Origin: a phage | Direction: 5' to 3' (one strand) | Length of the DNA: 64,000 bases | Assembly (NCBI GenBank): GCA_012455605.1 | Contig: GCA_012455605.1_3618.1 | Shown: positions 1-56,862 of the stretch, piece after piece | Numbering within the stretch: position 1 is the stretch's first letter | Layout: every line of letters begins with the position of its first letter | The notes under the pieces: model-generated | What the model was told of the DNA's origin: nothing | Databases searched by the model: none | Seen by the model: only the letters and a program-made list of their open reading frames with translations | Translations under genes and position numbers: made by a program

Positions 1-957
1 ATGGCGTATTTAAAAGTTTTGATGGACGAGATTTTTGGTCGTGCAAATCAGTTAAATACCATATCGATGACCACAAATTCCCCTTCGGGATTTAAGGCAA
101 CAGGAGCCACAGTTTTCTCCACAGCAAACTTTTTGCTTGTATATGCAAAAGATCGCACCCAGAAGCCGCTTAACAAAATCTATATACCTAAAGGGTATGA
201 TACCGGATATAACAAATACCTATTAAACCCGGATGACCCTTATAAAAATTGGACGTGGTGCGGTATTGCCGATGCGTTTGCAAAGGCCAATGGCTATAAA
301 GATGCAAAAGAAGCCAAGAAAAAACTGCCTGACACATTCGATGATGAATTAGCACAATTTGCAATTGATAATGCAGAACGTGTATTTCAATCTGTTGCAA
401 TTGGTGGTGGTGCTAAAATAAAGAGAAAAGAAACTATAGAGAAGTCAAAGAAAGATAGGGATAAGGTTTATGTACATCCAAATGAGGATGTTGAAGGATT
501 TTATATCGCAAATGGTAGGCAAATGGTCTTTTACTCCAATAGGCTTTTGGAAATTGACGGTGAGATGCAACCTGCGGAACTAATAACTGATGTTTGGACA
601 GACATTAGTTGGAATGGAATAGCAAATGAAGGCGGCGTTAGTTTCAAAAATGGAAAAAAACCAGAAGCGCTTTTGAAGCGGATTTTCGAAATGTGTACGC
701 GAGAAGGCGATTTGGTATTGGATTCATTCGGTGGTTCGGGAACTACTGCTGCTGTAGCTCACAAGATGAAAAGACGTTGGATCTCCATCGAGATCGGTGA
801 TCATTGCCATACCCATATTATTCCGCGCTTGGAAAAAGTGATCGATGGGGAAGATCAAGGTGGTATTTCTAAGTCTGTAAACTGGCAAGGTGGTGGTGGC
901 TTCCGTTATTACAAACTTGCCCCGACCTTAATTGCGAAAGATAAGTCTGATCAATAA
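1..957 (+). CDS. DNA methyltransferase (N6-adenine/N4-cytosine, beta-class-like); may be 5'-truncated by the window edge
   Basis: C-terminal motif I LVLDSFGGSGTTAAVA typical of the N6_N4 MTase family; no DPPY motif seen in the 318 aa, so the gene may start upstream of the window. Confidence 0.7.
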   Translation: MAYLKVLMDEIFGRANQLNTISMTTNSPSGFKATGATVFSTANFLLVYAKDRTQKPLNKIYIPKGYDTGYNKYLLNPDDPYKNWTWCGIADAFAKANGYKDAKEAKKKLPDTFDDELAQFAIDNAERVFQSVAIGGGAKIKRKETIEKSKKDRDKVYVHPNEDVEGFYIANGRQMVFYSNRLLEIDGEMQPAELITDVWTDISWNGIANEGGVSFKNGKKPEALLKRIFEMCTREGDLVLDSFGGSGTTAAVAHKMKRRWISIEIGDHCHTHIIPRLEKVIDGEDQGGISKSVNWQGGGGFRYYKLAPTLIAKDKSDQ

Positions 958-1276
958 AGAGTACAATCAAATGATGAAACGTTATAAACCATACACTTTT
1001 GAAATCGATTTCGAACTTGACGATATGTTCACTGTAGAAGCTCAGGCAGTTGTCCAGTTGCCAGACCCGGAGTGCCGTGATTCTGATGTTGACTATTACG
1101 GATTTAGACAGATCACTGATGTGCATGTTTACCGCAACGGTGAAGAGGTGGACTTCCACCAACTGCCAAACGATATTCGCCACTCAATTTACAAACGTGC
1201 AGCTCGTGAACTAGAGTCCTATCTGGATGCAGCGACGACAGCAGCTGCATTTGCTGAAGAAGTGGGAGGTTTCTGA
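932..1276 (+). CDS. hypothetical protein
   Basis: 114 aa ORF packed between neighbours; no recognisable motif. Confidence 0.4.
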   Translation: MRKISLINKEYNQMMKRYKPYTFEIDFELDDMFTVEAQAVVQLPDPECRDSDVDYYGFRQITDVHVYRNGEEVDFHQLPNDIRHSIYKRAARELESYLDAATTAAAFAEEVGGF

Positions 1277-1674
1277 TGATTACAGGTGTGAAGATTATTC
1301 AATACCACTTAACCAAATTGGAAGATGCTGAAAAAGAGCTTGCAGAAGTTCTGAATAGTGGATATACTTTGCTATCATGCGCCTGCTCAGACACCTACGC
1401 TGTGTGGACACTTATCCGGAAGGAAGAGCCTGCGGGAATCTTGGTGCCAAACCCTAAGATCATTAGCGAGGTGGATGACTACGCTCAGGATGGCCTGCCA
1501 GAGGGCTGGGAAGTATGGGAGGGTGGTGAAAACCCTGCACCAGGTAAGTGGGTAAAATATAAACTACGTAGTGGTGCACAGTACGCTGACTACTCTGATG
1601 ACCTAGACTGGAGTCATTCTTCACCAGGATCGTCTGCAAGTTCATATGATATCGTTGCTTTTCAGGAAGAATAA
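1276..1674 (+). CDS. hypothetical protein
   Basis: 132 aa ORF; start overlaps the previous stop; no recognisable motif. Confidence 0.45.
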   Translation: MITGVKIIQYHLTKLEDAEKELAEVLNSGYTLLSCACSDTYAVWTLIRKEEPAGILVPNPKIISEVDDYAQDGLPEGWEVWEGGENPAPGKWVKYKLRSGAQYADYSDDLDWSHSSPGSSASSYDIVAFQEE

Positions 1675-1686
1675 GGAGATAGTGTT

Positions 1687-2169
1687 ATGTCAGATTTTAT
1701 GTGGAAAGTAGGTTACGCAGCTCCTGAAATGTGTGAGGCTTGCTTTGTGAAAATAGGCCGCGAGGATATCGACAAAGTGATCCTTAAGTTTCGTGATGTA
1801 GCTGTGATCGGCAACCGAGTGCTTAAGCACTTAAAGAATCTGAAGCTCACCAAAAAGAAGTTCTTCGGACTTTTCGAAGAGAAAGTTGATGCTTGGACCC
1901 ATTGCATTCAGGAAGCTAAATCTCACTACAGTGCTATCGTTACCCCAGAACGGGTAGCCAAGATGGAAGGACTCATCAACAGCACAGAGTTTGAGTGCCT
2001 AAAGGCTGCCCTTGATAGTTATCCGAAATGCCTCAAGCACTTGGACAAGTATGTAGAAAAGGATGGGGAAATGTATCTCACCCTGGATGCATACTATGAG
2101 ATGCAAGAAATTTTAAATTTAGATTTGACATTGGTATCCACTGAGTATACAATAGGTATCCGGGTTTAA
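1687..2169 (+). CDS. hypothetical protein
   Basis: 160 aa ORF with GGAG upstream; followed by an intrinsic terminator. Confidence 0.5.
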   Translation: MSDFMWKVGYAAPEMCEACFVKIGREDIDKVILKFRDVAVIGNRVLKHLKNLKLTKKKFFGLFEEKVDAWTHCIQEAKSHYSAIVTPERVAKMEGLINSTEFECLKAALDSYPKCLKHLDKYVEKDGEMYLTLDAYYEMQEILNLDLTLVSTEYTIGIRV

Positions 2170-2175
2170 CACTAG

Positions 2176-2202
2176 GCCCTGCCCGAAAGGGTGGGGCTTT
2201 TG
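2176..2202 (+). terminator. rho-independent terminator (GCCCTGCCC-GAAA-GGGTGGGGC stem-loop then T-tract)
   Basis: 9 bp stem with two G-U wobbles, GAAA tetraloop, TTTTG; near-identical copy at 13196. Confidence 0.65.
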
Positions 2203-2219
2203 CATTAGGAGACAGCAAA

Positions 2220-2984
2220 TTGAAATTTATCTATAAAGAACACTACCACAAAGGTGTTGTGTGGAGTCTATTTGACGGATCTGGCGGTGCAGTCATTGAC
2301 TGGGCAAAAGCTGGATATCTGTGCCTGTGCTTTAACGCAGAAGGTGCTGACCACGGCAGTTATGCAGAGGTGATCACCGATCATCCAAATATTCACTATG
2401 TAGATTATTGGATTGATCCATGGTTCCCTCAGGAAACTTTCTGCATGTACCCAGCTCCGGACTTTGTTCTTGCATTTCCTCCGTGCACCCACTTAGCGGT
2501 GTCAGGTGCTGCACACTTTAAGAAGAAGCTGGCTAAGGACCCGCTGATCCAGATTAATGCTGTAAAGGATGCTCGGGTTGCAGAAGAGTTGGGAGAGATT
2601 TACGATTGCCCGTGGCATGTAGAGAATCCTGTGGGTGTTATGTCCACACTGTGGCGCAAACCTGATTACCGTTTTCACCCTTCTGACTATGGCGGGTATT
2701 TACCGGAGGATGATGTAAACCCCTGGTTTCCTGAATTTATAGCTCCACGTGATGCCTATCCAAAAATAACTTGCGGCTGGATAGGTAATGGATTTATAAT
2801 CCCGGCCACAAAACCTGTCCCGCAAATAGTTGACGCGGTTAGCGGGTATTCCATGCAACACGCCAAGCTGGGTGGAAAGAGTGCAAGAACAAAGATGATT
2901 CGAAGCCTCACACCACGTGGCTGGGCAAAAGCCGTATTCTTAGCAAACGAGCCTGTAGTAAGGAGCAGAATTAATGGGAAGTAA
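2220..2984 (+). CDS. C5-cytosine methyltransferase-like protein (atypical)
   Basis: Motif I-like SLFDGSGG, motif IV-like FPPCTHLAVSGA (PC-T rather than PC-Q), ENV-like HVENPVG, in the order and spacing of C5-MTases; only 254 aa. Confidence 0.5.
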   Translation: MKFIYKEHYHKGVVWSLFDGSGGAVIDWAKAGYLCLCFNAEGADHGSYAEVITDHPNIHYVDYWIDPWFPQETFCMYPAPDFVLAFPPCTHLAVSGAAHFKKKLAKDPLIQINAVKDARVAEELGEIYDCPWHVENPVGVMSTLWRKPDYRFHPSDYGGYLPEDDVNPWFPEFIAPRDAYPKITCGWIGNGFIIPATKPVPQIVDAVSGYSMQHAKLGGKSARTKMIRSLTPRGWAKAVFLANEPVVRSRINGK

Positions 2985-5052
2985 ATTTATGGCATCTGCA
3001 TACAACCGTTTCGGTGAGCCAAACCCGAAAGCAACTAAGTATAAAAGTGGGGGAAGTGTGAAACGAGACTATCGTGATGAAAAAGAAGTTGAAACTGTAG
3101 AGACTGTTTTAGAAAATACTAAAATTGTCCCTGTCCCACAACAAAATATCGGTCTGATGGCTGCACAATATTTTGGTGTGCGATCAGCATTGTCCCAAGA
3201 AGACGGTGTGACAGTTACTGCAACATATTTCCCATATTACGACCGCTACGGAAATCTGTCAGGTTTCAAAAAGCGTGACTGGACGATTCCTAAAGAGCAA
3301 AGGGGCCATTTCTCCGTTGTTGGCATAGTAAAGGCTAACTCCCAGATGTTTGGGCAAAAGCTGTGTGCATCTTCTAACAACCGTAAGCAGATTAACGTTT
3401 GTGAGGGGGAAGGCGATGTTATTGCAGCATGGCAGGCTGCATATCAGATACAAGTAAAAGGGATTCTCACCAACGCTAAAGCCCCGGCAAAGGTGAAACA
3501 GTGGGCTAAAGAGGTCCAGGACGGGATCGATGCAGTTATCAACGGGGGTGACCTGGCAGGAAAACCCTGCCTGCCTTTTGTTGGAATTAACTGTGGATGT
3601 GCAAACGCAGTAGATACTTTTGCAAACAATGAGAAATTTATCCGTAGCTACGGAACAGTGGTCCTTGCAATGGACAACGATGCGGCTAACGAGGTAGAGA
3701 AGCAAAAACACGTTATCAAAGGTGTTGAAGCCACACATAATATTGCAGCATTTTTGATGGCTGACAACGTTTACCACGTGGAATATCCTGGCGAGGTAAA
3801 CGACCCTGATGGTGTAAAAGATATCCGTGACATGCTGAAGGCTAAAAAGCTGGAAGATATTGTAAACATGTTCCGGCATCCTGTTAAGTATGTGCCTGAT
3901 GCTGTGTCGGATTTAGAAGACTTCTCTATCGAATCTTTGCGGAAAAAGACTTCCAACGGGGTAGATATCAGCGCAGAGTTTCCAAAACTGCAAAAAATGC
4001 TAAAAGGCTTGCACAAAGGGACACTCGTAATGCTTACAGGTCCATCAGGAGGTGGTAAAACAACTGTAGCCAAAAAACTGGAACACTGTATTGCAAGATA
4101 CCTAATGGACCCGACATGTCCAAAGGCCGATGACTACGAAGAGGATGATCGTCTATGCATGATTCATCTTGAGGAGGACCCAGAGGAAGCAATTAACTCC
4201 TTGTATGCAAACCAGTTAGGGTTTGATGTTAAAGAGTTTGTTGAAGATCCTAGCCAGTTTCTAACTGATCAAGAACACGCAGAGATTCACCAATCATGGG
4301 CAAAAGCTGGAAAAATCAAAGTGTTCAAACATTTCGGATCTATTCCGGTGGACGAGTTGATTACCAAGCTTAAGCAAATGGTTTGCCTGTACCATTGCCG
4401 TTATATTGTGCTGGATCACCTGTCTATGGTAATTTCAGGGCTTAATGTTAAGGATGAGCGAAAAGAACTGGACATGGCTATGACCCAACTGGCTGCGTTT
4501 TGTAAGCAGTTTAACGTGTTTATCCTAGTGATCGCTCACCTCAAACGTACAGAGATTGTGCCTCCTAAGGACAAGGATGGTAACCCGTTACCTTTCTGGT
4601 ATCCTGTGCGAAAAGAGAATTTGCGAGGATCGGCTGGGCTTGAACAGTTGAGTTGGGTAGTCATAGGTGTTGAGGCTGAAGAAATGGTAGATCGTTCTCG
4701 TGGGCGTGTCCGTTTAGTAGGTCTTAAAAACCGTCCAGCAAAAACATTGGGTATTGCGGATACTTTGGTTATGGACCCGCATACAGGTAAGTTCCATGAT
4801 GCCAGTAATTGGTACTGGGACAAAGAAATGCAGATGTTTACAGACGGAGAAGGTGGGGAGGTTGTTTGGAGACCTCAGGCCATGTTTGAGGACCAAGAGC
4901 ATGCAGTTGTAGAAACACCTATGGGCAAGGTTGTAGCGGATAAGGTTGTAACTCCTACTATTAAGCCTGTTGACACGCAGGAAGACCTCCAGTACGATGA
5001 TCCATCCTCTGATCCGGTCCCCGGTTTTGAAGATGATGAAACACCTTTTTAA
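2974..5052 (+). CDS. DNA primase-helicase (TOPRIM primase fused to DnaB-like helicase)
   Basis: TOPRIM CEGEGD and LAMDNDAANE; Walker A GPSGGGKTT; Walker B IVLDHLS; acidic C-terminus ending EDDETPF. Confidence 0.85.
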   Translation: MGSKFMASAYNRFGEPNPKATKYKSGGSVKRDYRDEKEVETVETVLENTKIVPVPQQNIGLMAAQYFGVRSALSQEDGVTVTATYFPYYDRYGNLSGFKKRDWTIPKEQRGHFSVVGIVKANSQMFGQKLCASSNNRKQINVCEGEGDVIAAWQAAYQIQVKGILTNAKAPAKVKQWAKEVQDGIDAVINGGDLAGKPCLPFVGINCGCANAVDTFANNEKFIRSYGTVVLAMDNDAANEVEKQKHVIKGVEATHNIAAFLMADNVYHVEYPGEVNDPDGVKDIRDMLKAKKLEDIVNMFRHPVKYVPDAVSDLEDFSIESLRKKTSNGVDISAEFPKLQKMLKGLHKGTLVMLTGPSGGGKTTVAKKLEHCIARYLMDPTCPKADDYEEDDRLCMIHLEEDPEEAINSLYANQLGFDVKEFVEDPSQFLTDQEHAEIHQSWAKAGKIKVFKHFGSIPVDELITKLKQMVCLYHCRYIVLDHLSMVISGLNVKDERKELDMAMTQLAAFCKQFNVFILVIAHLKRTEIVPPKDKDGNPLPFWYPVRKENLRGSAGLEQLSWVVIGVEAEEMVDRSRGRVRLVGLKNRPAKTLGIADTLVMDPHTGKFHDASNWYWDKEMQMFTDGEGGEVVWRPQAMFEDQEHAVVETPMGKVVADKVVTPTIKPVDTQEDLQYDDPSSDPVPGFEDDETPF

Positions 5053-5110
5053 TGTTTAACAAAGAGTGGGAGGGGTAGTACAACCGCCTCCCCTTTAAGG
5101 AGAACTGTAT

Positions 5111-7540: not shown

Positions 7541-7674
7541 CATTGTGGCTTCGTGCAGTGATGCACGTCGAAAACCTCTTTAATTGACGGGAAGGCTAAG
7601 TTGACTTTTACACCTAAACATGGTAAAAGCTCAATATGCTAATCCGCAGCGAAGACTAAAGGGGTGTAGTTAAA

Positions 7675-8730: not shown

Positions 8731-8779
8731 TGTAAACTATCAACACATGGAAGTGTTGTTGAGCAAAGAGGAGACTTTT

Positions 8780-41959: not shown

Positions 41960-42313
41960 CTACCAGGTTACTGTCAAGTAGGCAACCGTATTATTTTTCT
42001 CTGGGGAGATGCCAACAACATCTACCTGCAGACCTCCTGCCCTTAAATCTCCAACAATGTGCGGGAAGTAATCTGAGAGATGCGAGGGTAGATTTATCGA
42101 AAATCCGCACCCCAGAAAGCCTGCTAACGCTTTATTTTGTATCTCCCCCACAATCGCATCATAAATGGAGTTAAGCTCGTCAGGAAGCGTTACAGGACGT
42201 TTTAGCGCTAACTGGTGTAATTTGTCCTTAGCACTCATTTTCATTTCAGGTCTACCTCTGGAGGTGCCAACCACATAAATGGCGGCAGGTCTAAACGGTT
42301 CTTCTTGTCCCAC
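41960..42313 (-). CDS. hypothetical protein
   Basis: 117 aa. Confidence 0.4.
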   Translation of the reverse strand: MGQEEPFRPAAIYVVGTSRGRPEMKMSAKDKLHQLALKRPVTLPDELNSIYDAIVGEIQNKALAGFLGCGFSINLPSHLSDYFPHIVGDLRAGGLQVDVVGISPEKNNTVAYLTVTW

Positions 42314-42774
42314 ACAAAATATGCATATGCTTGCCCGTCAGTTCTGCCATTCGATTGGAATGATGGACGCTTAGATATTGTGATCACAGTGGTAGGTGCA
42401 TTATCAAGCCACCATTCAAATCTGGCTTTGCTTTCCAAAAAATTAAGACGCAAAAGCATAATAACTACGTCAGCATCTTTCAACGCCTTGTCTACAAACT
42501 CACGAGCCAGGCTGTACGGTGGGTTGGTGATAATACAGTCAACATGGTTGTATTCTGTATTCAGATAGTCAACACCTTCTTGGATTTCTCCCCATGCAGA
42601 TCCTAACGGCATACGGGAGTAGAACACACCTGAGGCGCTATTCCTGCAAGGCTCTAGGTAGGTCCAGTCTTCTGGGAACGGAATAAGGTCATACAGCCCT
42701 TCTGCACACCACTCCGGTGTCACATACTCATCGTAGGCGTTACGTTGTTCATCAGGTTTTCTAGCACAAGTCAT
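42241..42774 (-). CDS. small N6-adenine methyltransferase-like protein
   Basis: YVTPEW...YLEPCRNSASGVFY then DCIITNPPYS (motif IV NPPY); 177 aa. Confidence 0.55.
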   Translation of the reverse strand: MTCARKPDEQRNAYDEYVTPEWCAEGLYDLIPFPEDWTYLEPCRNSASGVFYSRMPLGSAWGEIQEGVDYLNTEYNHVDCIITNPPYSLAREFVDKALKDADVVIMLLRLNFLESKARFEWWLDNAPTTVITISKRPSFQSNGRTDGQAYAYFVWDKKNRLDLPPFMWLAPPEVDLK

Positions 42775-46284: not shown

Positions 46285-46345
46285 ACTGTACCTCCTAGCT
46301 CGCTGTGCCAACAATATGCCACATCCTTGTGGATTTTGTCAAGTA

Positions 46346-48469: not shown

Positions 48470-48744
48470 TTTTTCTCTCCAAAACCATTCTTAACAAAAG
48501 AGATGAAATCGTCGGCACCGCCTATATGGACACTGTCAAGATCGCTTTCTAAGAAGATCTGCGGCAACGTTCTGGGGACAATTGGACTGCACTTCTCAAT
48601 AAGCTCTTCTTTTGTGTAGCCCTCGCCAAGTGTCTTATATACAAAAGGCAGACCTTTGCTGATTGCAAATTCTTTTGCTCTGACACAATGTGGGCAGTTA
48701 TCCTTACCGTAAATGATGATGAAAAAAGATTTTTCGCAGCTCAT
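48466..48744 (-). CDS. glutaredoxin/NrdH-like redoxin
   Basis: CPHC active-site motif near the N-terminus, 92 aa. Confidence 0.75.
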   Translation of the reverse strand: MSCEKSFFIIIYGKDNCPHCVRAKEFAISKGLPFVYKTLGEGYTKEELIEKCSPIVPRTLPQIFLESDLDSVHIGGADDFISFVKNGFGEKK

Positions 48745-48747
48745 ATA

Positions 48748-49836
48748 TTAAAACTCCCAAATTTCTTCTTCAGCGTCGTTAACAGTTGTGTTGACGCGGT
48801 AGTCAGTGTTCGACATTTCTTGGTTCGCCGTCTGTTGTAATGAAGGTTTCATCCACACCTGCATAAACGGTAGCGGGTCCTTTGTTGGCGGCACAAAGTC
48901 TTTGTCGATGTCGTAGTAATCATAAATCGGTGAGCAGTTATAGTCAACCCACTCTTTAAGCAACGGTGAGTTAAGACCTATAATCGCTCTTCCTTCGCTG
49001 AAAATATAGTCACTCCAACCGTACTCTTTGGTTCGTACTTCATCAAGAATCTCTTTTAACTCCCCCTTTATCTCAAGGAAGCTTTTCTCCCATGCGGGAT
49101 CATTAAGCAAGATATCAATGATGGCAAAATCACCTTTCGAATGTAGCATTTCGTCAAGCATGATTTTTTGAACAAGCTGCGCCACCTGAACAAAGATACC
49201 CTGTTCAGCTACTGCGAAAGTGCATGCAAAACTTGCAATAAACTCAATACTTTCCAGAGCTAAAAGCGCAAAAAGCGCTCTAAGAATGCATTTCCGCACA
49301 ATATCTTCTTCAACACTAGAAGGATCCAGGCGGTATTTTGCACCAATAACCTCAAGCTCTTGCATGTATTTGACAATAACGCCGGATCTGCTCAGAACGT
49401 TTTGGTTTTCCTGAATCTCTTCTATAATCTCACGGGCATTGGGGAGGCATTGTCTAACAATCTCTGAGTAAGTTAGTGCGTGAAGAACTTCAATCTCTGA
49501 CTGTTTCATCAATAGAGTGAAAAGCTCACTATTAGTGATGAATGGTGAAAAGAGGCAGATGATCGATCTTGCCGCAACGCTATCAGCCTCCCATTGCCAC
49601 ATCAAGGTCTGCACCATCACGTCATAAGTTGACTTTGAGCATGTTACAAAATCTGAAATAGATTGCGACAAATCCACTTCATCCTCTGCCCAATCTTGCT
49701 CTTTTTGTTTTTTGTATAGTTCAAACAGTTGTGGATATTTTTTGTTGATAGAGTCGTACATACCCATTTGCTGTCCCAGAAACAGCGGATAGTCACCAGT
49801 TTTATGAGCGGTGTTCTCAGCATTAAATACAGCCAT
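48748..49836 (-). CDS. nrdB: ribonucleotide reductase beta subunit NrdB (class I)
   Basis: Di-iron ligand pattern and typical C-terminal tail; start moved to MAVFNAEN to avoid overlapping nrdA. Confidence 0.85.
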   Translation of the reverse strand: MAVFNAENTAHKTGDYPLFLGQQMGMYDSINKKYPQLFELYKKQKEQDWAEDEVDLSQSISDFVTCSKSTYDVMVQTLMWQWEADSVAARSIICLFSPFITNSELFTLLMKQSEIEVLHALTYSEIVRQCLPNAREIIEEIQENQNVLSRSGVIVKYMQELEVIGAKYRLDPSSVEEDIVRKCILRALFALLALESIEFIASFACTFAVAEQGIFVQVAQLVQKIMLDEMLHSKGDFAIIDILLNDPAWEKSFLEIKGELKEILDEVRTKEYGWSDYIFSEGRAIIGLNSPLLKEWVDYNCSPIYDYYDIDKDFVPPTKDPLPFMQVWMKPSLQQTANQEMSNTDYRVNTTVNDAEEEIWEF

Positions 49837-49874
49837 TATTCTACCTCTAAAATGGGGCCGAAGCCCCTTTAAAA

Positions 49875-52190
49875 TTATAGTGCACAGCTTTCGCAATACG
49901 GATCTTCAACTGAACTATCTGCAATCAAAGGATAGTTCTTTCTGGTTTCATCTTCAGCCTGTTTCTTGGCATGAAGTTCCTCTGCCAAGGAGTCACCAGC
50001 ACCAACCCTAGAGTTTAAATAATACCATGTCTTCATCCCGAATTTAGTGGCACGGATAAGGTACCCTAACTGCTCCTTCATTGAAATTTTACCATCTTTC
50101 AACTTGGTGTAGTCTATGTATAAATCCGCGCTGATTGCCTGACCTGTGAATTTTTGAATCACGGCATACATATCGATCATGTCGTTAGTATCAACGTCCC
50201 AAGCCGAGGTGTAATACTCTTTCAACTCATCATAGTCAGGAACGATAAACAGCACCTGCCCTTGTGGCGACTTTTTAAAGATAATGTGCTCACGGACAGG
50301 ATAAACCCCGTTAGTGGTGTTTGTTGCCAGCGAAGAGCTTTCATTAGGCATATATGCTTCAAGAACGCTATTACGTAGCCCACCATTCTCAATGATTTCT
50401 TTACGTAACCCTTCCCAATCCTGTTTAAGAGAAGGATCTTTCACCACGCTATCGACCTCTTTGTTATAGGTGTCGATTGGTAACCAACCTTCTGGATATT
50501 TTGTTTTATGCATCCACTCGCAGACACCACGCTCTTTTGCCAACCGTAAACTTGCCTTATGCAAGCTGTAGCTGTGAAGTTCTGCAAGATCGTGAACGAG
50601 CTGTTTACTTTCAGGAGACCCGTAAGTAACCTTGTGGCTGGCAATAAAATGTGCAACATTGGTAAGGCCAACCCCGATGGATCTGCGTTTTTTAACTGTG
50701 CTTTCCATATTTTCATACGGATATGTCATGATTTCCATAACATTGTCAATCATAAGCACCGTATAGTATGCAACATCCTCATACTCCTCTGGAGTAACCC
50801 TCCCAGCTACAAGAGATGACAGGAAGCACAATGCAACCTCTCCATCATCAGCATCGTACTTGAAGATATTACGCATATCTGAATAGCCTTTTGTCGGGAG
50901 GGCTATTTCTGCACACAGGTTGCTTGAATAGATCACATCTTTAAAAGGTGTATGTCTATTCATCTCATCTGTCCAGTATACGTACAGCCTTCCCACCTCA
51001 GTGCGCTGCGTGATCAGTTCAACAGCAAGATCTCTAGCTCGGATCCATGTTTTAGGAATACTGTCATCTTTAGCAATACGATCAACCTCTGCATCAAACT
51101 CCTCCATAGACATGGTGAAGATACCCTCATGCAGTTGAGGCGCGTGCTTATAAGAAACAAGCATCCAATCTAAATTCTTAGCCACACGGTTGATAAACGA
51201 CCTATTAATACCGATGGAGTAGTCCATGGTGTTGATTCTTTTTGAAGCAACAGTCATAGGGTTTCTCAAACGGATTAGCTCATCAATCTGCGGGTCCAGT
51301 GCAAGGAATGATACTGTTGCAGAACCACCACGTGATTGTTGTCTGTTCTCCTTAACCCCAGCATCAATACCTCGATAATATGGAATCTTACCCATATGTT
51401 TAATAGTGTTACCACGAACACCATCGCCTGCAGATCTTGAGGATAAGTAGTAGCCGATACCTGCTTGGTTAACCGTCATTGTGTACGCAACTTCACGTGC
51501 CACACCAATAGATTTTGCTGTATCGTCAGCTTTTATTACACAACAAGATGCATACCCTGTCTTACCTGTGCGCAGCCCGTTTAAGTACGGTGTTGGGGCA
51601 TTGATCTTTAAGTCGGACAGATAAGTGTATAATTTTACAACATCGTTGATACGACGTTCTTTCGGCATATTCTTCATGACAGCCATTGCTATCCCCATAA
51701 ACATCATCTGGGGAGATTCAAACAAGGTGTCTTTAAGAGTATCCTTGATCCCGTATTTGTCGCGAAACTGTTTAAGGACTGCATAGCCATAACCGAGATC
51801 TTTACTGTGGTCAATAACAGCGCCTAAAGTGTTTAGCTCGGTAAAGCTATAACCCATATCCTCCCAATAACCTTTCTCAACCATGTCATTGTAAAATGAT
51901 GGTAAGGAAGGGATCTTTGTAAACCCTCCAAAAGCCTCTTTATAGATCTGACCAATAAGAACACGACCAGCCATACGGGAATGTGCTTCGTCTTTACGGC
52001 TAACACAAGAGTCTATAATAGCTTGGTTAACTTCTTTGGTTGTACATCCATCATACAACCGCTTGTAGGCATCCAGTGCAATATGTGACCAATTGCCGTT
52101 ACCATCGTCACCGAAAATAGCTGCCTTATTTAAACGTTCTGGATCGAATGCCACTTCACATCCGTTGCTTTTAATTACCTTGGTGATCAA
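49875..52190 (-). CDS. nrdA: ribonucleotide reductase alpha subunit NrdA (class I)
   Basis: N-terminal ATP-cone; NLCAEIALP active-site motif; C-terminal CESC pair. Confidence 0.9.
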   Translation of the reverse strand: MITKVIKSNGCEVAFDPERLNKAAIFGDDGNGNWSHIALDAYKRLYDGCTTKEVNQAIIDSCVSRKDEAHSRMAGRVLIGQIYKEAFGGFTKIPSLPSFYNDMVEKGYWEDMGYSFTELNTLGAVIDHSKDLGYGYAVLKQFRDKYGIKDTLKDTLFESPQMMFMGIAMAVMKNMPKERRINDVVKLYTYLSDLKINAPTPYLNGLRTGKTGYASCCVIKADDTAKSIGVAREVAYTMTVNQAGIGYYLSSRSAGDGVRGNTIKHMGKIPYYRGIDAGVKENRQQSRGGSATVSFLALDPQIDELIRLRNPMTVASKRINTMDYSIGINRSFINRVAKNLDWMLVSYKHAPQLHEGIFTMSMEEFDAEVDRIAKDDSIPKTWIRARDLAVELITQRTEVGRLYVYWTDEMNRHTPFKDVIYSSNLCAEIALPTKGYSDMRNIFKYDADDGEVALCFLSSLVAGRVTPEEYEDVAYYTVLMIDNVMEIMTYPYENMESTVKKRRSIGVGLTNVAHFIASHKVTYGSPESKQLVHDLAELHSYSLHKASLRLAKERGVCEWMHKTKYPEGWLPIDTYNKEVDSVVKDPSLKQDWEGLRKEIIENGGLRNSVLEAYMPNESSSLATNTTNGVYPVREHIIFKKSPQGQVLFIVPDYDELKEYYTSAWDVDTNDMIDMYAVIQKFTGQAISADLYIDYTKLKDGKISMKEQLGYLIRATKFGMKTWYYLNSRVGAGDSLAEELHAKKQAEDETRKNYPLIADSSVEDPYCESCAL

Positions 52191-52495
52191 TTTGCTTCCT
52201 CCACTTCACTAACGTATTTATCAAGGCAGGTATCAGTATCTTGCTGGATAAAAGTATCCTCTTCTACAGAGATATTTATAATTTTACCTGTATACTCGTC
52301 ATAATAGACATCATCATACATTTTAATATCGTTTGTCAGGCCATTGAACCAAAGCCAACCAACATACTCTGCCCGACTTGCAAAACCAAGATCCTTCCAC
52401 TTGGAGTTATGACTCATCTTCACCACCTTAGCTTTCAATACCGAATAATTTTTCCAGGCGATGCAGATCTTCAAAATTGAAAGGTTCATCAACAA
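52187..52495 (-). CDS. hypothetical protein
   Basis: 102 aa; true start may be internal. Confidence 0.4.
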   Translation of the reverse strand: MLMNLSILKICIAWKNYSVLKAKVVKMSHNSKWKDLGFASRAEYVGWLWFNGLTNDIKMYDDVYYDEYTGKIINISVEEDTFIQQDTDTCLDKYVSEVEEAN

Positions 52496-52889
52496 TATGA
52501 ATATCTTCAGCCTTTTCAGATTGTTTTGTATACTTTCTTACATTAACACGATCTTCTACAGGGATATCATACGGGAGATCTTGAACAAGCATTGCCTCAC
52601 CAGGTGCTTTATCTACATCTAAAATATCTACACCGTTATACATTTGTGGGTATCTAAAGTCTGCACGCATGACACCAGCAAATACATCTGCCTTTCGATA
52701 ATGTGTTGGCTTATTTTTGCATCGAACGTTTTTTCCACGAAGAACATCAATACTTTTTAAATCAAACCCTACGGCAAAGAGTGCAGCTCGGAGACCGTTT
52801 CGTGTGCGAACGTTAAACCCGGGGACGGTAGATAGAAAATCTAAAGTAACTGAAATAAATGTCTTTTTAGGAATCATAACATTACTCAT
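52428..52889 (-). CDS. hypothetical protein
   Basis: Start moved to MSNVMIPKK with GGAGA upstream, compatible with the promoter at 52930; no confident motif. Confidence 0.4.
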   Translation of the reverse strand: MSNVMIPKKTFISVTLDFLSTVPGFNVRTRNGLRAALFAVGFDLKSIDVLRGKNVRCKNKPTHYRKADVFAGVMRADFRYPQMYNGVDILDVDKAPGEAMLVQDLPYDIPVEDRVNVRKYTKQSEKAEDIHIVDEPFNFEDLHRLEKLFGIES

Positions 52890-52929
52890 ATCTGTCTCCA
52901 TTTCTGGCTCACCAACAAAGTGAGCCATT

Positions 52930-52958
52930 ATTATAGATTATCTAATACTATTAGTCAA
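52930..52958 (-). promoter_or_regulatory. sigma70-like promoter on the minus strand (TTGACT-N17-TATAAT)
   Basis: Near-perfect hexamers read on the reverse strand. Confidence 0.5.
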
Positions 52959-52987
52959 CACAAAAGTTACCTATCGCTGTGATAGGA

Positions 52988-53971
52988 TTAACCTTTCACG
53001 AAGTGGTTATTAAGCAGTTGTCTGTGCTGAACCCACCCACAAAAGTTGGCAGACCAGAATTTACCATCACGGTCTTGATGGGTTACACCTTCCTGCCAAG
53101 TACTGATGTCTTGTGTGATTTCACATGAAGACAGGTAGTAGTTTAAACGTTCCATTGCGTTATCGTGATCCATAGGTGTTGCCTGGTGCTCGTAAGGGCT
53201 TGCATGAATACGATCCCCACCAATCAATTTTTTAGCCACACTATCTGCCTTTTCAAACGTGCTGTCAATATTTCGATAAGATACTTGTGCACAGCAACTA
53301 GCACTGATAGACAGAGCTTCTTTAGTATCGAGAATGCAGAGCTTTCCTTCTGTGTCACGTACAGCGTAGTTAAACTCTCCGTCCAAATAAACGTGCTCTA
53401 CATATGGGGTGTGCCATTGACCCGGTTTAAGGATTTCAGGAGTGCTATTCTCAAGAGCCTCCCACATACAATTAGCTAACATCTGAATCGTAGGATCCGC
53501 ATCGTGCCAGCAACGGAGGTGGAAAAAATTATTCCACTCGGTGCTTGTTACAACTGTTTTCATGCGCTGGAACGGCTCCACTAAGCGGTTACATACTTGC
53601 TTATGGTAACCAGCAAGGGCGAACTTCTCTGCATGCCAAGCGGCGTTTTTTGCAGCTTCTTTCCAAAACTCTTCAGGAGTTAGCTCCATGTCAGTGTACT
53701 CTACACGGATCTTTTGATCGTGTTCCCCACCATCTTCCATTCCTCGCTTATTTACACCGAAGCGAACTGGCATTGCCGGATTCTCCACAATCTGTTGCAG
53801 CATCTTGCCGACAGGTACTGCACGGGAAGACATGGCGTTTCGGCTGAACACTCGGTGCGTCATAAGCTCTGAGTGAATAATTCGAGGATACTCTAGTTCA
53901 AAAGTGGTGATACGCTTACCTTTCTCGGAAATGCTGTCAGCAATAATCTTTGCAGTGCACAGTTTTAGCAT
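52988..53971 (-). CDS. thyX: ThyX-like FAD-dependent thymidylate synthase
   Basis: MTHRVFSRNAMSSRA resembles the ThyX RHR-x7-S signature (first Arg replaced by Thr); neighbours are nucleotide-metabolism genes. Confidence 0.55.
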   Translation of the reverse strand: MLKLCTAKIIADSISEKGKRITTFELEYPRIIHSELMTHRVFSRNAMSSRAVPVGKMLQQIVENPAMPVRFGVNKRGMEDGGEHDQKIRVEYTDMELTPEEFWKEAAKNAAWHAEKFALAGYHKQVCNRLVEPFQRMKTVVTSTEWNNFFHLRCWHDADPTIQMLANCMWEALENSTPEILKPGQWHTPYVEHVYLDGEFNYAVRDTEGKLCILDTKEALSISASCCAQVSYRNIDSTFEKADSVAKKLIGGDRIHASPYEHQATPMDHDNAMERLNYYLSSCEITQDISTWQEGVTHQDRDGKFWSANFCGWVQHRQLLNNHFVKG

Positions 53972-54171
53972 TATTTAGCTCTCCTTGTTTTAATTTTGGA
54001 AATTTCGTCTGGGTTTATGTTGGCCTTAAATGCAAGGTATCTGTTGAACATGTCAGAGCACATATCTTGGGTGATCCTAGAGGCATACACTAGCTTACCT
54101 CCTAGATCATACACCTCTAGCCAGTCACCGTATCTGACTACAGGATCGCCACCTTTAGAACATCTGCCCAT
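53971..54171 (-). CDS. hypothetical protein
   Basis: 66 aa. Confidence 0.4.
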   Translation of the reverse strand: MGRCSKGGDPVVRYGDWLEVYDLGGKLVYASRITQDMCSDMFNRYLAFKANINPDEISKIKTRRAK

Positions 54172-54172
54172 T

Positions 54173-54766
54173 TCAAATACCTTCTAAAAATTTTCCTATT
54201 TTATACCAGCTATTAGCGGTATAGTCAACACTGACCTTTAACTCCTCGAATTGCTCATAAGGCGTATCTTTTAGGATTTTAATAACTTCAGGTCGTGAAG
54301 CGAATTGGTTCAGGTATTCATGCCTGTCGTCAATTATAACATCTACAGCCACATTCCCTTTGAAATGTGTGGCGTAGAAGCCGTGGCCCTGGGTGTGATC
54401 GTCCAGATCCATAAAATCACTGGTCCAACGCTTTAAGAACCTTGATTTAGATGCAAGGTGACCTTTCTTGCATACCGAGATAAATGCAAGCTTGTGACCA
54501 CGAGCCACCAAATCTTTCATAACCTCAATAGCCCCCTCTTCAGGCTTAAGGAAGTCGTAGAGGAACGGATCACTCCAGAAATCAAAAGGTCCTATGATGT
54601 TTTCTTTGGGACGATCAGGCCAATACTTTGACAGATCGTAATACATTAGCCCATTAGAAGGTTTAGCTACTGTCTTACTGGCTGGACCATACAAACGCTC
54701 CAACCACTCCCACCATGCTGTTCCTGAATCTACCAGTGTCAGATCTACATCAATTCCGATTAACAT
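54173..54766 (-). CDS. HAD-family phosphatase, putative 5'-deoxyribonucleotidase
   Basis: N-terminal IGIDVDLTLVD matches the HAD DxDx(T/V) motif; sits next to the dNMP kinase. Confidence 0.55.
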   Translation of the reverse strand: MLIGIDVDLTLVDSGTAWWEWLERLYGPASKTVAKPSNGLMYYDLSKYWPDRPKENIIGPFDFWSDPFLYDFLKPEEGAIEVMKDLVARGHKLAFISVCKKGHLASKSRFLKRWTSDFMDLDDHTQGHGFYATHFKGNVAVDVIIDDRHEYLNQFASRPEVIKILKDTPYEQFEELKVSVDYTANSWYKIGKFLEGI

Positions 54767-55374
54767 TCTTCTTGGGCCTCTTTAGCATCAATATACTTGC
54801 ACACAATCTCCGATGCACACTCCCAAGGTGCACCTTCAGGGTTTACAACATCAAACTCAACCCCTTTTATTCCGTTCTTTTCCAGACTTAGATAGGTTCT
54901 GGAATCATTTCCCCAGTCATATCCTGCACGGTGAATACGGAACAACAACAGATCTCCACCTGTGCTGTATGCGTACTCGCTAAGGCATGCCAGCTCCTCT
55001 TTGAATCCCCCATCGGAGTAAACAATAACCCCTTTACCTTCAGGGAAATCTTTCTTCAAAGATGCGACTGCGGCTTTACCGAAAGCATCTTCACCAAAGA
55101 TAGGTTTAATCAGATTTTCACTACAATGGATCATCCATTCTCGCGGAGAAACATGCTTGCCGTCTATCATTAAGAAAGGGCAAGGCTCTTCTTTGTAGTG
55201 GCGGTCATAAAGTGCATTCCAGAGTTGAGGAGTTACACCAGCTGCCTTAATTGCCACACTGAAGAGCATTTCCTTAACCTCACGGTGGTGTGAGTTAGGA
55301 ATAGCTTCCAACAAGAGATCTGCAATGTGATCCTTACCACTGCTGGGTGGGGCGTTAAGAACAATAATATCCAT
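54760..55374 (-). CDS. deoxynucleoside monophosphate kinase-like
   Basis: P-loop-like N-terminus IVLNAPPSSGKDHIADLL, similar to phage dNMP kinases. Confidence 0.6.
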   Translation of the reverse strand: MDIIVLNAPPSSGKDHIADLLLEAIPNSHHREVKEMLFSVAIKAAGVTPQLWNALYDRHYKEEPCPFLMIDGKHVSPREWMIHCSENLIKPIFGEDAFGKAAVASLKKDFPEGKGVIVYSDGGFKEELACLSEYAYSTGGDLLLFRIHRAGYDWGNDSRTYLSLEKNGIKGVEFDVVNPEGAPWECASEIVCKYIDAKEAQEEC

Positions 55375-55577
55375 TAAAAACCTCCGTGGTATTCTTCAAC
55401 TGCATCAATAATACTTTTACACTTATCTACCAGCTCGTTAGCCACTACAGCATCGTCTTCCCAAACAGCCTCCTCAATCTGATCAAGCAATGATCGCATC
55501 TTACTCATCATTTCTGGGATAAAGTTTTCTGAAAAGCTGTCTGGAATTGTTAACTCTAGTGTCATTTCGGTCTCCAA
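55374..55577 (-). CDS. hypothetical acidic protein
   Basis: 67 aa. Confidence 0.4.
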   Translation of the reverse strand: METEMTLELTIPDSFSENFIPEMMSKMRSLLDQIEEAVWEDDAVVANELVDKCKSIIDAVEEYHGGF

Positions 55578-55592
55578 TCATACTATGCGTTA

Positions 55593-56051
55593 TTAGAAGT
55601 TTGTTTTTACACGTCCCTTCTCATCAACCTCGTTGTTAGCTAAAAGCGTTACAAAGTCTGTGAAACGAACATGAAGAACCCTTTTCTTATCAAGGTATCC
55701 TAAAGCCACCCCTGAGAAATTTAGCATCAAAGGGGCTAAAGAAGCTCTGGCACTGAAATGCTGTTGTTCTACCCTTCCAACACCCTTAGTGTAGGATGGG
55801 TTAAGATTGTAAGTTCTGAATCCCAGTTTTGTTGGAGCTTTAGAATTAAAAACGACTTTATAGCGTTTCTTACTCAACTTATGCTCCAGGATAAGCATTC
55901 CCTTATCACCTTTGATAAGTTGAAAATCTGTAAAGTGCTCTTTTAAGACGAAAGGTAGTGCCAGTCCCATCGCCTGTCCTCTTTGTACCGCTGTCTCACC
56001 AAAAGCTTTTGCATCAGTAAGTTCTTTGGTCAAGTCTATGCTTTTGATCAT
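55593..56051 (-). CDS. hypothetical protein
   Basis: 152 aa. Confidence 0.45.
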   Translation of the reverse strand: MIKSIDLTKELTDAKAFGETAVQRGQAMGLALPFVLKEHFTDFQLIKGDKGMLILEHKLSKKRYKVVFNSKAPTKLGFRTYNLNPSYTKGVGRVEQQHFSARASLAPLMLNFSGVALGYLDKKRVLHVRFTDFVTLLANNEVDEKGRVKTNF

Positions 56052-56862
56052 ACCTGGTCTCCAAAATGTATTGTAGTTCTTTCTTACCTATACTCTTCAT
56101 TCCAGCAGTCTTACCTGCTTCTTCTTGAAAAGAAGAATAGCATTCAGCAAACACTCTGTCAACACCGTTAACTAAAGATTTTATGAAATATGTTGATTCT
56201 TCAGATTTTGGGTCATCATCCCCCAATACTTTTCCAGCATTATACCCAACACGTCTTACACAGAAGTCGTAGTCATCTGGTGTGCTAAAAGAAAATAACT
56301 TATTCTCTCCAATCTCTACAGGATCCCTATTGCACGCCTTTTTCTCCCAAATTTGGAAAACACATGGCACGTCATAAGGTTTGCCATTAAGTAAAAACGA
56401 ATTCTTAGGGCACCTTTCGCTGTAGACAAGGTGCATCGACATGTCCAGTTTGTTTGCAAAAAATATTTTTTCAAATGTCCGTGGCAAGATGAAGGCTATA
56501 GCCCCTCCAAGCTCTAGCAATGATGCACAATGGTTAAAGAATTTGCAAGCTAAGGATGAATTCTTGCCAAATGGTGGGTTACCTATGAAGACATCTGCCT
56601 TGGGATGCACCTCCAAGAAGTTTGCCTGAATGCACGGTGTTGGTCCTTCAAATTCAGGATCTGGTACTAAATCGTACGACAGTATCTCTGAAAATAGTTT
56701 TGAAAAAGAACCCCTTCCAGCAGAAGGCTCAACGTATGCACAATTCCCATACTTATCTTTTACTTTACCAACAAGATATTCTGCATACTCAGGGTTTGTG
56801 TAGTATTTGTCGTTGGACTCTTTCTTGCTCAAAGTGCCTCCAAAAGGAAAAGGGAGGCGCAA
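56014..56862 (-). CDS. N6-adenine DNA methyltransferase (gamma-class, M.TaqI-like motif order)
   Basis: YYTNPEYAEYLV (TP motif), YVEPSAGRGSF (motif I), DVFIGNPPFG (motif IV). Confidence 0.7.
   Translation of the reverse strand: MRLPFPFGGTLSKKESNDKYYTNPEYAEYLVGKVKDKYGNCAYVEPSAGRGSFSKLFSEILSYDLVPDPEFEGPTPCIQANFLEVHPKADVFIGNPPFGKNSSLACKFFNHCASLLELGGAIAFILPRTFEKIFFANKLDMSMHLVYSERCPKNSFLLNGKPYDVPCVFQIWEKKACNRDPVEIGENKLFSFSTPDDYDFCVRRVGYNAGKVLGDDDPKSEESTYFIKSLVNGVDRVFAECYSSFQEEAGKTAGMKSIGKKELQYILETRYDQKHRLDQRTY

What the first reader, a model, noticed from the sequence alone, without database searches (positions are those of the whole stretch)
1..56862. Four methyltransferase-like genes of three classes in one window
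A beta-class-like N4/N6 enzyme (1-957), an atypical C5-like enzyme (2220-2984), a short NPPY protein (42241-42774) and a gamma-class M.TaqI-like enzyme (56014-56862) suggest heavy investment in DNA modification as protection against restriction; none has an adjacent restriction endonuclease.
Basis: partly seen in the sequence, partly recalled or inferred. Interest (0 to 1): 0.5.

Follow-up and report, generated by a model that had tools for sequence, protein, structure and literature searches.

The report
Four orphan DNA methyltransferase genes, rV5-like phage
The window comes from an rV5-like E. coli phage and does carry four stand-alone DNA-methyltransferase-like genes, all already annotated in published relatives; what this check adds is that one of them is a near-identical, shortened copy of the methylase subunit of an E. 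coli type III restriction system.

Summary
All four ORFs are real. The window is 97-99% identical to published Vequintavirus (rV5-like) genomes. There the same genes are annotated as three "putative N6 adenine methyltransferases" and one "Dcm-like C5 cytosine methyltransferase", so the gene inventory is already known.

Corrections:
- ORF 1-957 is only the last 318 codons of a 441-codon gene. Its catalytic DPPF motif lies upstream of the window.
- ORF 56014-56862 most likely starts at 56832.

Class assignments hold: a beta-class type III Mod-like enzyme, a minimal C5-methyltransferase fold, and two gamma-order N6-adenine enzymes. No restriction gene is adjacent.

BASEL experiments found Vequintavirinae "exceptionally susceptible" to the restriction systems tested, so broad protection is not provided.

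The Mod-like gene is 94.5% (DNA) and 97% (protein) identical, target-recognition domain included, to the first 440 residues of a 568-residue E. coli Mod. That host Mod sits directly upstream of its Res, and 24 of 5426 complete genomes carry it. The phage copy ends where the domain that docks Res in EcoP15I would begin, and it is under strong purifying selection. This fits narrow, system-specific self-protection. What the other three enzymes target is unknown.

The parts
1..957 (+). 3' part (codons 124-441 plus stop) of a type III Mod-like, beta-class N6-adenine DNA methyltransferase gene. Motif I, FGGSGTT, is at nt 727-747. The catalytic DPPF motif lies upstream of the window.
   Evidence: PF01555, 89.5 bits. 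Full-length homologue: 441 aa, PF01555 146.5 bits. Solved Mod subunits 6k0w (1e-28) and EcoP15I Mod 4zcf. PADLOC MTase_III PDLC03636, 7e-205. Window 1-966 is 94.7% identical to E. coli mod at L009:8373-9349.
958..966 (+). Last bases of the DNA homology to the E. coli chromosomal mod gene. The homology stops here, so the 3' third of the host gene (the Res-docking domain) is absent from the phage.
   Evidence: Local blastn of window 1-3000 against L009 gave one alignment, 1-966 to 8373-9349, with one gap. Protein alignment A4.
2220..2984 (+). Minimal C5-cytosine-methyltransferase-like gene (254 aa). Motif I FDGSGG is at nt 2271-2288, the catalytic-type PPC at 2478-2486, ENP at 2622-2630 and RSLTPRG at 2901-2921. 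It overlaps the start of the primase/helicase gene (2974-5052).
   Evidence: PHROG 757, 1e-86. 3530 relatives, with PPC, ENP and other columns invariant. Profile against PDB: all best hits are DNMT3B or M.HaeIII, E 0.13-0.2, aligning motifs I to IV. Model pLDDT 89; Foldseek DNMT3A 7e-6.
42241..42774 (-). Small (177 aa) gamma-order N6-adenine methyltransferase core with no recognisable target-recognition domain. YVTP is at nt 42715-42726, the EPC..G SAM motif at 42628-42654 and NPPY at 42514-42525. It lies directly downstream of the ClpP-like protease gene.
   Evidence: PHROG 799, 8e-67. Weak Pfam EcoRI_methylase and Dam hits below cut-off. 5783 relatives. Family profile's best PDB hits are type I HsdM StySJI (3e-5), DpnA and M.TaqI.
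56014..56832 (-). Compact (272 aa) gamma-class type II-like N6-adenine DNA methyltransferase gene. YYTNP is at nt 56791-56805, EPSAGRGSF at 56704-56730 and NPPFG at 56566-56580.
56842..56869 (-). Terminator-like hairpin GGGAGGC-TTG-CGCCTCCC followed by a T-rich run, between the DnaQ-like exonuclease gene and gene 4. It contains the spurious TTG start at 56862.
   Evidence: Read directly from the sequence printed.

Best explanation
The window is part of an rV5-like (Vequintavirus) E. coli phage genome. It carries four stand-alone DNA methyltransferase genes embedded in the replication and nucleotide-metabolism gene blocks. They most likely methylate newly made phage DNA at specific short sequences, each protecting against a narrow set of restriction systems rather than against restriction in general.

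The case is concrete for gene 1. It is a captured copy of the Mod subunit of an E. coli type III restriction-modification system. It keeps the N-terminal dimerisation region, the methyltransferase core and the target-recognition domain almost unchanged. It has lost the C-terminal domain, which in EcoP15I docks the Res nuclease/motor subunit. Inferred consequence: the phage enzyme marks the same sites as the host system, so phage DNA is read as self, and it probably cannot recruit Res.

Shown: homology, domain content, purifying selection, absence of adjacent nucleases. Inferred: enzymatic activity, sequence specificity, and the protective effect.
For: Identity of the phage and existing annotation.

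Gene 1:
- 94.5% DNA identity over 1318 of 1326 nt to a chromosomal E. coli gene in 24 of 5426 complete genomes.
- The host gene encodes a 568-aa Mod (PADLOC MTase_III, 7e-285). It is followed after 21 nt by a 912-aa Res (REase_III, 9e-191) in a tRNA-Sec island. The same cassette is present in a second genome.
- 97% protein identity across aa 1-438, including the region between motifs IV and I.
- Homology ends at window nt 966.
- The truncation point aligns to about residue 520 of EcoP15I Mod. In EcoP15I the MTase domain ends at residue 516, the CTD is 539-644 and contacts Res, dimerisation uses the NTD and MTase domains, and Mod2 alone is an active methyltransferase (PMC4490356).
- dN/dS between phage copies is 0.06-0.11, so the shortened protein is maintained by selection.

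Gene 2: C5-MTase motifs and fold.
Gene 4: full-length match to a type II MTase model.
Gene 3: best solved relatives are DNA N6-adenine MTases.

Conservation in phage records at 90% identity or more: about 117-121 records for genes 2-4 and 88 for gene 1.
Against: - No methylome or enzymatic data for any rV5-like phage were found.
- BASEL experiments show Vequintavirinae are highly sensitive to the RM systems tested. Any protection must therefore be narrow. The cognate system of gene 1 is not known to have been among those tested.
- Gene 2 has no hit in Pfam, NCBIfam or PADLOC.
- Gene 3 has no recognisable DNA-recognition domain.
- Genomic contexts of bacterial relatives of gene 4 are heterogeneous and not clearly restriction-modification operons.
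- The recognition sequence of the host type III system is unknown to me.
Confidence: 0.6

Rival explanations
1. The methyltransferases serve the phage's own DNA transactions rather than evasion of restriction. Possible roles are marking phage DNA for replication, packaging or gene-expression timing, or distinguishing it from host DNA that is being degraded.
For: All four genes sit inside the replication and nucleotide-metabolism modules. Gene 2 overlaps the primase/helicase start, and gene 4 follows the DnaQ-like exonuclease. Vequintavirinae are not protected from the RM systems tested. Genes 2-4 are conserved over wide phage groups irrespective of host.
Against: Gene 1 is a near-identical copy of a restriction-system Mod, including its recognition domain, which is hard to explain by an internal role. 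Early or middle expression alongside replication genes is also what protective methylation requires. No phage nuclease that depends on methylation state was identified.
Confidence: 0.2
2. Gene 4, and possibly gene 3, are RNA (rRNA or tRNA) N6-adenine methyltransferases that modify the translation apparatus, not DNA enzymes.
Against: Gene 4 matches PADLOC type II DNA methyltransferase models over its full length (3.7e-34 and 1.3e-25). The RNA enzymes align only to the 150-residue Rossmann core. M.BseCI, CamA, MmeI and M.TaqI align 228-250 of 282 residues, and M.TaqI has the highest sequence identity among the top Foldseek hits. For gene 3, the profile's best hits are DNA enzymes: HsdM, DpnA, M.TaqI and M.BseCI.
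Confidence: 0.12
3. Some of the four genes are inactive remnants carried along without function.
For: Gene 1 is truncated relative to its host counterpart. Gene 3 has no recognisable target-recognition domain, and its SAM motif deviates from the family consensus. No protective phenotype was seen in the laboratory.
Against: All catalytic motifs are intact. Gene 1 shows dN/dS of 0.06-0.11 between phage lineages at dS up to 0.37. All four are kept at 90-100% protein identity in about 90-120 independent isolates. EcoP15I Mod needs no CTD for dimerisation or catalysis according to its structure.
Confidence: 0.05

Closest known systems
Type III restriction-modification Mod subunits (EcoP15I Mod, PDB 4zcf; H. 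pylori Mod, PDB 6k0w). The closest relative is the E. coli chromosomal Mod WP_024226319.1, with Res WP_024226320.1 next to it.
   Same: Beta-class order (DPPF, then recognition domain, then FGGSGTT). PF01555 domain. 97% identity to the E. coli Mod over NTD, MTase core and recognition domain.
   Different: No res gene next to it. It lacks the C-terminal ~128 residues, which in EcoP15I form the Res-contacting CTD. It is encoded by a lytic phage inside its replication module.
C5-cytosine DNA methyltransferases (Pfam PF00145; DNMT3A/3B catalytic domains; M.HaeIII)
   Same: Motif I FxGxG, a Pro-Cys catalytic-type motif, an ENx motif, and a Rossmann fold whose best solved matches are DNMT3A/3B.
   Different: Only about 230-254 aa, with roughly 35-40 residues where the target-recognition domain normally lies. 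ENP instead of ENV. Below Pfam, NCBIfam and PADLOC detection. TM-scores are only about 0.5. Specificity is unknown.
Gamma-class N6-adenine DNA methyltransferases of type II systems (M.TaqI, M.BseCI; PADLOC MTase_II model PDLC03255)
   Same: Gene 4 has a Y-T-x-P N-terminal motif, an EPSAG-G SAM motif, then NPPF. It matches the profile over its full length and has a two-part fold that aligns over 228-234 residues to M.TaqI and M.BseCI.
   Different: Much smaller (272 aa against 421-585 aa). Pfam Eco57I and MTS hits are below cut-off. No partner endonuclease. The core is equally similar to METTL5-type rRNA enzymes.
Small phage Dam-type methyltransferases (Pfam PF05869, TIGR01712) and the catalytic core of type I HsdM
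   Same: Gene 3 is of similar size (177 aa; the PF05869 profile is 169 positions). It has NPPY and SAM motifs and weak hits to Dam, EcoRI methylase and HsdM.
   Different: All hits are below the curated cut-offs. No recognisable recognition domain or specificity subunit nearby. The downstream 94-aa ORF has no family hit.
Phage orphan methyltransferases of bacterial restriction-modification origin, a general concept cited in the reviews seen
   Same: Stand-alone methyltransferases without an adjacent nuclease on a mobile element, assumed to protect exported DNA (PMC12707154).
   Different: For gene 1 the donor system can be named and is still 94.5% identical at the DNA level, and the copy has selectively lost the Res-docking domain.

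Membership tests
Type III R-M Mod subunit / beta-class N6_N4 DNA methyltransferase (PF01555) | PF01555 domain above the Pfam gathering score | tested here: met
   Window fragment scores 89.5 bits against 26.7. The full-length homologue scores 146.5 bits.
Type III R-M Mod subunit / beta-class N6_N4 DNA methyltransferase (PF01555) | Motif IV (D/S)PP(Y/F) N-terminal of the recognition domain, and motif I FxGxG C-terminal of it | tested here: met
   In the 441-aa homologue, DPPF is at aa 73-76 and FGGSGTT at aa 366-372. Only motif I lies inside the window.
Type III R-M Mod subunit / beta-class N6_N4 DNA methyltransferase (PF01555) | Adjacent res gene (SF2 helicase-nuclease, about 900-1000 aa) | tested here: not met
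   The upstream gene is a 456-aa PIF1-type helicase. The downstream small ORFs have no hits. The E. coli counterpart does have Res adjacent.
Type III R-M Mod subunit / beta-class N6_N4 DNA methyltransferase (PF01555) | C-terminal domain that contacts Res (EcoP15I aa 539-644) | tested here: not met
   The phage protein ends at the position aligning to about residue 520 of EcoP15I. The host Mod continues for a further 128 aa.
C5-cytosine DNA methyltransferase (PF00145) | Significant match to the PF00145 or NCBIfam C5-MTase models | tested here: not met
   No Pfam or NCBIfam hit for the window protein. A few relatives carry a precomputed PF00145 hit.
C5-cytosine DNA methyltransferase (PF00145) | Motif I FxGxG, motif IV Pro-Cys and motif VI ENV conserved in the family | tested here: met
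   FDGSG nearly invariant; P87, P88, C89 and E135, N136, P137 invariant in 25 sequences. Motifs I and IV align to DNMT3B and M.HaeIII. Motif VI reads ENP rather than ENV.
C5-cytosine DNA methyltransferase (PF00145) | C5-MTase fold | tested here: met
   Model pLDDT 89. The top 25 Foldseek PDB hits are DNMT3A/3B (E from 7e-6, TM about 0.5), and the prophage CP-933R DNA MTase 3g7u also appears.
C5-cytosine DNA methyltransferase (PF00145) | Produces m5C in DNA at a defined motif | not testable with these tools
   Needs bisulfite, EM-seq or nanopore sequencing of phage DNA, or heterologous expression.
Gamma-class type II N6-adenine DNA methyltransferase (M.TaqI-like) | Order motif X, motif I, then (N/D)PP(Y/F) | tested here: met
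   Gene 4: YYTNP aa 20-24, EPSAGRGSF aa 45-53, NPPFG aa 95-99. Gene 3: YVTP aa 17-20, EPC..G aa 41-49, NPPY aa 84-87.
Gamma-class type II N6-adenine DNA methyltransferase (M.TaqI-like) | Full-length profile match to a curated type II MTase model | tested here: met
   Gene 4: PADLOC PDLC03255, 3.7e-34, residues 18-263 against profile positions 2-249 of 269. Gene 3 has only a weak partial hit (1e-3). The Pfam Eco57I hits for both are below cut-off.
Gamma-class type II N6-adenine DNA methyltransferase (M.TaqI-like) | C-terminal DNA-recognition domain like that of M.TaqI | tested here: inconclusive
METTL5-type rRNA m6A methyltransferase (considered for gene 4) | Single-domain protein of about 200 aa with NPPF, closest in sequence and fold to METTL5, PH1948 or Ta1320 | tested here: inconclusive
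Phage Dam family (PF05869 / TIGR01712), considered for gene 3 | Score above the curated cut-offs | tested here: not met
   PF05869: 19.2 bits against 28.1. TIGR01712: 16.1 against 97.

The most novel reading that the evidence does not exclude
The shortened phage Mod may do more than methylate. It is 97% identical to the host Mod across the dimerisation surfaces (NTD and MTase core) but lacks the Res-docking domain. It could therefore form mixed dimers with the host Mod, or compete for sites, and so disarm the host type III enzyme directly. That would be a dominant-negative anti-restriction mechanism acting before the phage DNA is fully methylated.

Separately, genes 2 and 3 belong to very large phage families (more than 3500 and more than 5700 relatives). 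These are unusually small methyltransferases with almost no recognition domain, and their specificities have, as far as I found, never been determined.
Probability: 0.15. Interest if true: 0.6.

Novelty: already known. Interest (0 to 1): 0.3.

Why it matters
The four genes themselves are routine annotation in more than 100 published rV5-like genomes, so the finding as written adds nothing new.

What may matter is the pairing of gene 1 with a named, still nearly identical host type III system. It turns a vague "orphan methylase, perhaps anti-restriction" label into an experiment that can be done directly: clone the mod-res pair from E. coli 2014C-3011 and compare wild-type and knockout phage.

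It also offers a natural example of a Mod that kept recognition and catalysis but shed its Res-binding domain. For phage therapy with rV5-like phages, it predicts which hosts' restriction barriers these phages already bypass.

Tried and rejected
- **Pfam and NCBIfam scans** gave nothing for genes 2 and 4 and only sub-threshold hits for gene 3.
- **Single-sequence PDB searches** found nothing useful for genes 2-4. Family profiles and structure models were needed.
- **PF26055**, listed for relatives of gene 4, is not in the Pfam copy available, so I could not identify it.
- **Genomic context of four bacterial or metagenomic relatives of gene 4**. The neighbours are not conserved: the two downstream small genes are unrelated, and only one has a faint REase_II hit (6e-4). 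I therefore do not claim these are restriction-modification operons.
- **DNA searches of genes 2, 3 and 4 against 5426 E. coli genomes** found no close host copy.
- **Oligonucleotide statistics of the window** gave no clue to target motifs. GATC, CCWGG, EcoRI, EcoRV, EcoP1I and EcoP15I sites are all near expectation.
- **Literature searches** for a methylome, restriction-digest resistance or enzymology of rV5-like phage methyltransferases found none. The rV5 genome paper does not discuss methylation.
- **The idea that the upstream helicase is a Res subunit** was rejected: it is a PIF1-type SF1 helicase of 456 aa.


Full report
**What the window is.** Megablast of window 1-6000 and 41000-58000 against phage records gives 97-98.7% identity over the full query to many Vequintavirus (rV5-like) E. 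coli myoviruses, for example RudolfGeigy MZ501102 and MaxBurger MZ501093. In these curated BASEL records the four ORFs of the finding are already annotated. They appear as 'putative N6 adenine methyltransferase' (three times) and 'Dcm-like C5 cytosine methyltransferase'. Papers on related Vequintavirinae genera also note an N6-adenine and a C5-cytosine methylase found by HHpred (PMC7344957 and PMC11370258). The gene inventory is therefore known.

**Checking the observation.** All four ORFs are present, with two corrections.

- ORF 1-957 is not a whole gene. In RudolfGeigy the gene is 1326 nt (441 aa). The window starts at codon 124, with 2 mismatches over the shared part. The catalytic DPPF motif (aa 73-76) is upstream of the window, and only motif I, FGGSGTT, is inside (nt 727-747).
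- The TTG at 56862 used by the ORF lister for gene 4 lies in the loop of a terminator-like hairpin (GGGAGGC-TTG-CGCCTCCC plus a T run). An in-frame TTG at 56832 follows a GGAGG. It gives MSKKESND..., matching the N-termini of relatives and the 272-aa annotation.

A regex scan of all ORFs of 90 aa or more found (D/N/S)PP(Y/F/W/H) only in genes 3 and 4. No further amino-methyltransferase is hidden in the window.

**Gene 1 (1-957, +).**
- The fragment hits PF01555 at 89.5 bits, and the full-length homologue at 146.5 bits.
- The closest solved proteins are type III Mod subunits: H. pylori Mod 6k0w (1e-28), EcoP15I Mod 4zcf (3e-24) and Mbo45V.
- PADLOC's type III methyltransferase model PDLC03636 matches at 7e-205, but only to profile positions 2-444 of 575.
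- The upstream helicase is a 456-aa PIF1-type protein, not a Res. The downstream small ORFs have no hits.

**The host counterpart of gene 1.**
- A blastn of the full phage gene against 5426 complete E. coli genomes found it at 94.5% identity over nt 1-1318 in 24 genomes, always chromosomal.
- In strain 2014C-3011 the match is the 5' three-quarters of a 1707-nt gene for a 568-aa 'site-specific DNA-methyltransferase' (PADLOC MTase_III, 7e-285, full length).
- That gene is followed 21 nt later by a 912-aa 'DEAD/DEAH box helicase', which matches PADLOC REase_III at 9e-191.
- The pair lies in an island next to tRNA-Sec, together with a mad1-type HTH, a DrmD-like SNF2 protein and an AbiD protein. 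The same cassette, with identical Mod and Res accessions, occurs in a chicken isolate.
- The proteins are 97% identical from residue 1 to 438, including the whole stretch between motif IV and motif I, where the recognition domain of beta-class enzymes lies.
- Local blastn shows the DNA homology runs from 13 nt before the phage start codon to window nt 966 and then stops. There is a gap of about 11 nt near the end, and the phage ORF terminates as KDKSDQ* where the host continues KDKFGLEV... for 128 more residues.
- Both copies have 40% G+C.

**What the truncation means.**
- HMMER aligns the host segment GFRYYKLAPTLIVKDKFGLEV to EcoP15I Mod around residues 505-531.
- The EcoP15I structure paper defines NTD 14-60, MTase 62-262 and 390-516, TRD 263-384, and CTD 539-644.
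- It states that ModA and ModB dimerise through the NTD and MTase domains, that Mod2 alone is a stand-alone methyltransferase, and that the CTD of ModA makes extensive contacts with Res (PMC4490356).
- By homology, the phage protein keeps what is needed to dimerise, recognise the site and methylate. It lacks the part that docks Res. This mapping is an inference from a distant homologue, not a demonstration.

**Selection on gene 1.**
- Nei-Gojobori estimates between phage copies give dN/dS of 0.06-0.11, at dS up to 0.37. The copies compared were RudolfGeigy, FV3 and HdK5.
- Phage-host comparisons give 0.06-0.12. The shortened gene is therefore under strong purifying selection in phages.
- The host copy is about as close to each phage copy (dS 0.19-0.23) as the phage copies are to each other. 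All phage copies end at the same place. This fits a single capture of the 5' 1.3 kb by an ancestor of the genus.
- Gene 1 occurs at 90% identity or more in 88 phage records, against 117-121 for the other three genes. Outside Vequintavirus, its next relatives are only 38-41% identical.

**Gene 2 (2220-2984, +).**
- No Pfam, NCBIfam or PADLOC hit, but PHROG 757 at 1e-86.
- There are 3530 relatives in the large protein collection, mostly 225-260 aa.
- FDGSG is nearly invariant, and PPC, ENP and TK.IRSLTPRG contain invariant residues.
- The family profile's only PDB hits are C5 enzymes (DNMT3B, M.HaeIII). The E-values are weak (0.13-0.2), but motifs I and IV are aligned, including the catalytic Cys.
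- An AlphaFold model (pLDDT 89, pTM 0.89) finds DNMT3A/3B catalytic domains as its best solved matches (E from 7e-6, TM about 0.5), together with a prophage DNA methyltransferase.
- 'Atypical C5-like' is a fair description: a minimal C5 fold with only about 35-40 residues where a recognition domain normally sits.
- The family is present in 1502 phage records across many groups of enterobacterial phages, with genome sizes from about 42 to 165 kb.

**Gene 3 (42241-42774, -).**
- 177 aa, with YVTP, an EPC..G SAM motif, then NPPY, i.e. gamma order. PHROG 799 at 8e-67.
- Pfam EcoRI_methylase and Dam hits are below cut-off.
- There are 5783 relatives, most 160-200 aa.
- The profile's best PDB hits are type I HsdM StySJI (3e-5), another adenine DNA methyltransferase, DpnA, M.TaqI and M.BseCI.
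- No recognition domain is recognisable, and the 94-aa ORF downstream has no hit.
- Its position next to the ClpP-like protease gene is kept in relatives of other genera.

**Gene 4 (56014-56832, -).**
- PHROG 5172 ('unknown function') at 4e-129. Pfam Eco57I and MTS hits are below cut-off.
- The clearest evidence is the full-length match to the PADLOC type II methyltransferase models PDLC03255 (3.7e-34) and PDLC03256 (1.3e-25).
- I therefore keep it as a compact gamma-class DNA enzyme, with an RNA substrate as a minority rival. Contexts of bacterial relatives did not settle the matter.

**Function.**
- The BASEL study measured plating on defined restriction systems. [quoted passage not shown] This argues against a general shield.
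- It does not argue against narrow protection. A sequence-specific methylase protects only against systems that read its own motif.
- Gene 1 points to one such system, which only 0.4% of complete E. coli genomes carry.
- Genes 2-4 have no close E. coli copy and their targets remain unknown.
- Site statistics in the window gave no hint. GATC (358 observed, 337 expected), CCWGG, GAATTC, GATATC, AGACC and CAGCAG are all near expectation.

**Verdict.** The one addition of some interest is that the Mod-like gene is a recent, selectively shortened copy of an identifiable host type III Mod. That makes a specific anti-restriction test possible, and it raises the unproven possibility of a dominant-negative effect on the host enzyme.

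Noticed in passing
window 28130-30650: About 2.5 kb without long ORFs, at the switch from the + strand gene block to the - strand gene block. Related annotated phages also have no genes there. No tRNA and no Rfam match. A cluster of ATAGTTGCC(T/C)TG-type repeats in both orientations lies at 28774-28974, including an 18-nt perfect inverted repeat (28823-28840 / 28957-28974). This could be an origin of replication or a regulatory region.
   Followed up: partly
phage records MG065644, MG065690, MG065662 and others: Dozens of GenBank records named 'Campylobacter phage' with host Campylobacter jejuni are 97-99% identical to E. coli rV5-like phages, and the best match of this window is one of them. 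The host label looks doubtful. True Campylobacter phages such as CP81 carry only a 38-41% identical Mod-like protein.
   Followed up: no
L009:3115-12464 (E. coli 2014C-3011) and L012 (E. coli 90-1): A defence island at tRNA-Sec with mad1-type HTH, a DrmD-like SNF2 protein (PADLOC 1e-208), AbiD, an optional AIPR protein, then type III Mod and Res. A remnant ArdA anti-restriction gene and integrase fragments lie next to it.
   Followed up: partly
window 56842-56869 (-) and 42792-42814 (-): Terminator-like GC-rich hairpins with T runs directly upstream of genes 4 and 3. Each of these methyltransferase genes would therefore need read-through or its own promoter. The first hairpin contains the spurious TTG start of the ORF as listed.
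   Followed up: partly
whole window: Several G+C-rich 6-bp palindromes are absent or rare against a Markov expectation (GGCGCC 0 vs 6.7, CGATCG 1 vs 9.2, TGGCCA 1 vs 9.2; CTAG and GTAC are also low). GATC is not avoided (358 vs 337). This is mild restriction-site avoidance, independent of the methyltransferases.
   Followed up: no
window about 46000-49000 (nrdD region) and 5100-8200 (DNA polymerase): In relatives the anaerobic ribonucleotide reductase and DNA polymerase genes are annotated as joined from two pieces. MaxBurger carries an extra ~800-bp homing-endonuclease insertion in nrdD that this window lacks.
   Followed up: no
P0260 (relative of gene 3): One 492-aa relative fuses the gene 3-type methyltransferase core (residues 316-490) to an N-terminal PAPS-reductase-like domain (PF01507, 3.5e-5).
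   Followed up: no
window about 35200-35500 (by correspondence with RudolfGeigy 99829-100146): Related phages annotate a 'ribosome hibernation factor' gene here. Further along the genome of relatives there are RNA ligase, polynucleotide kinase and sirtuin-domain genes. I did not verify this in the window.
   Followed up: no
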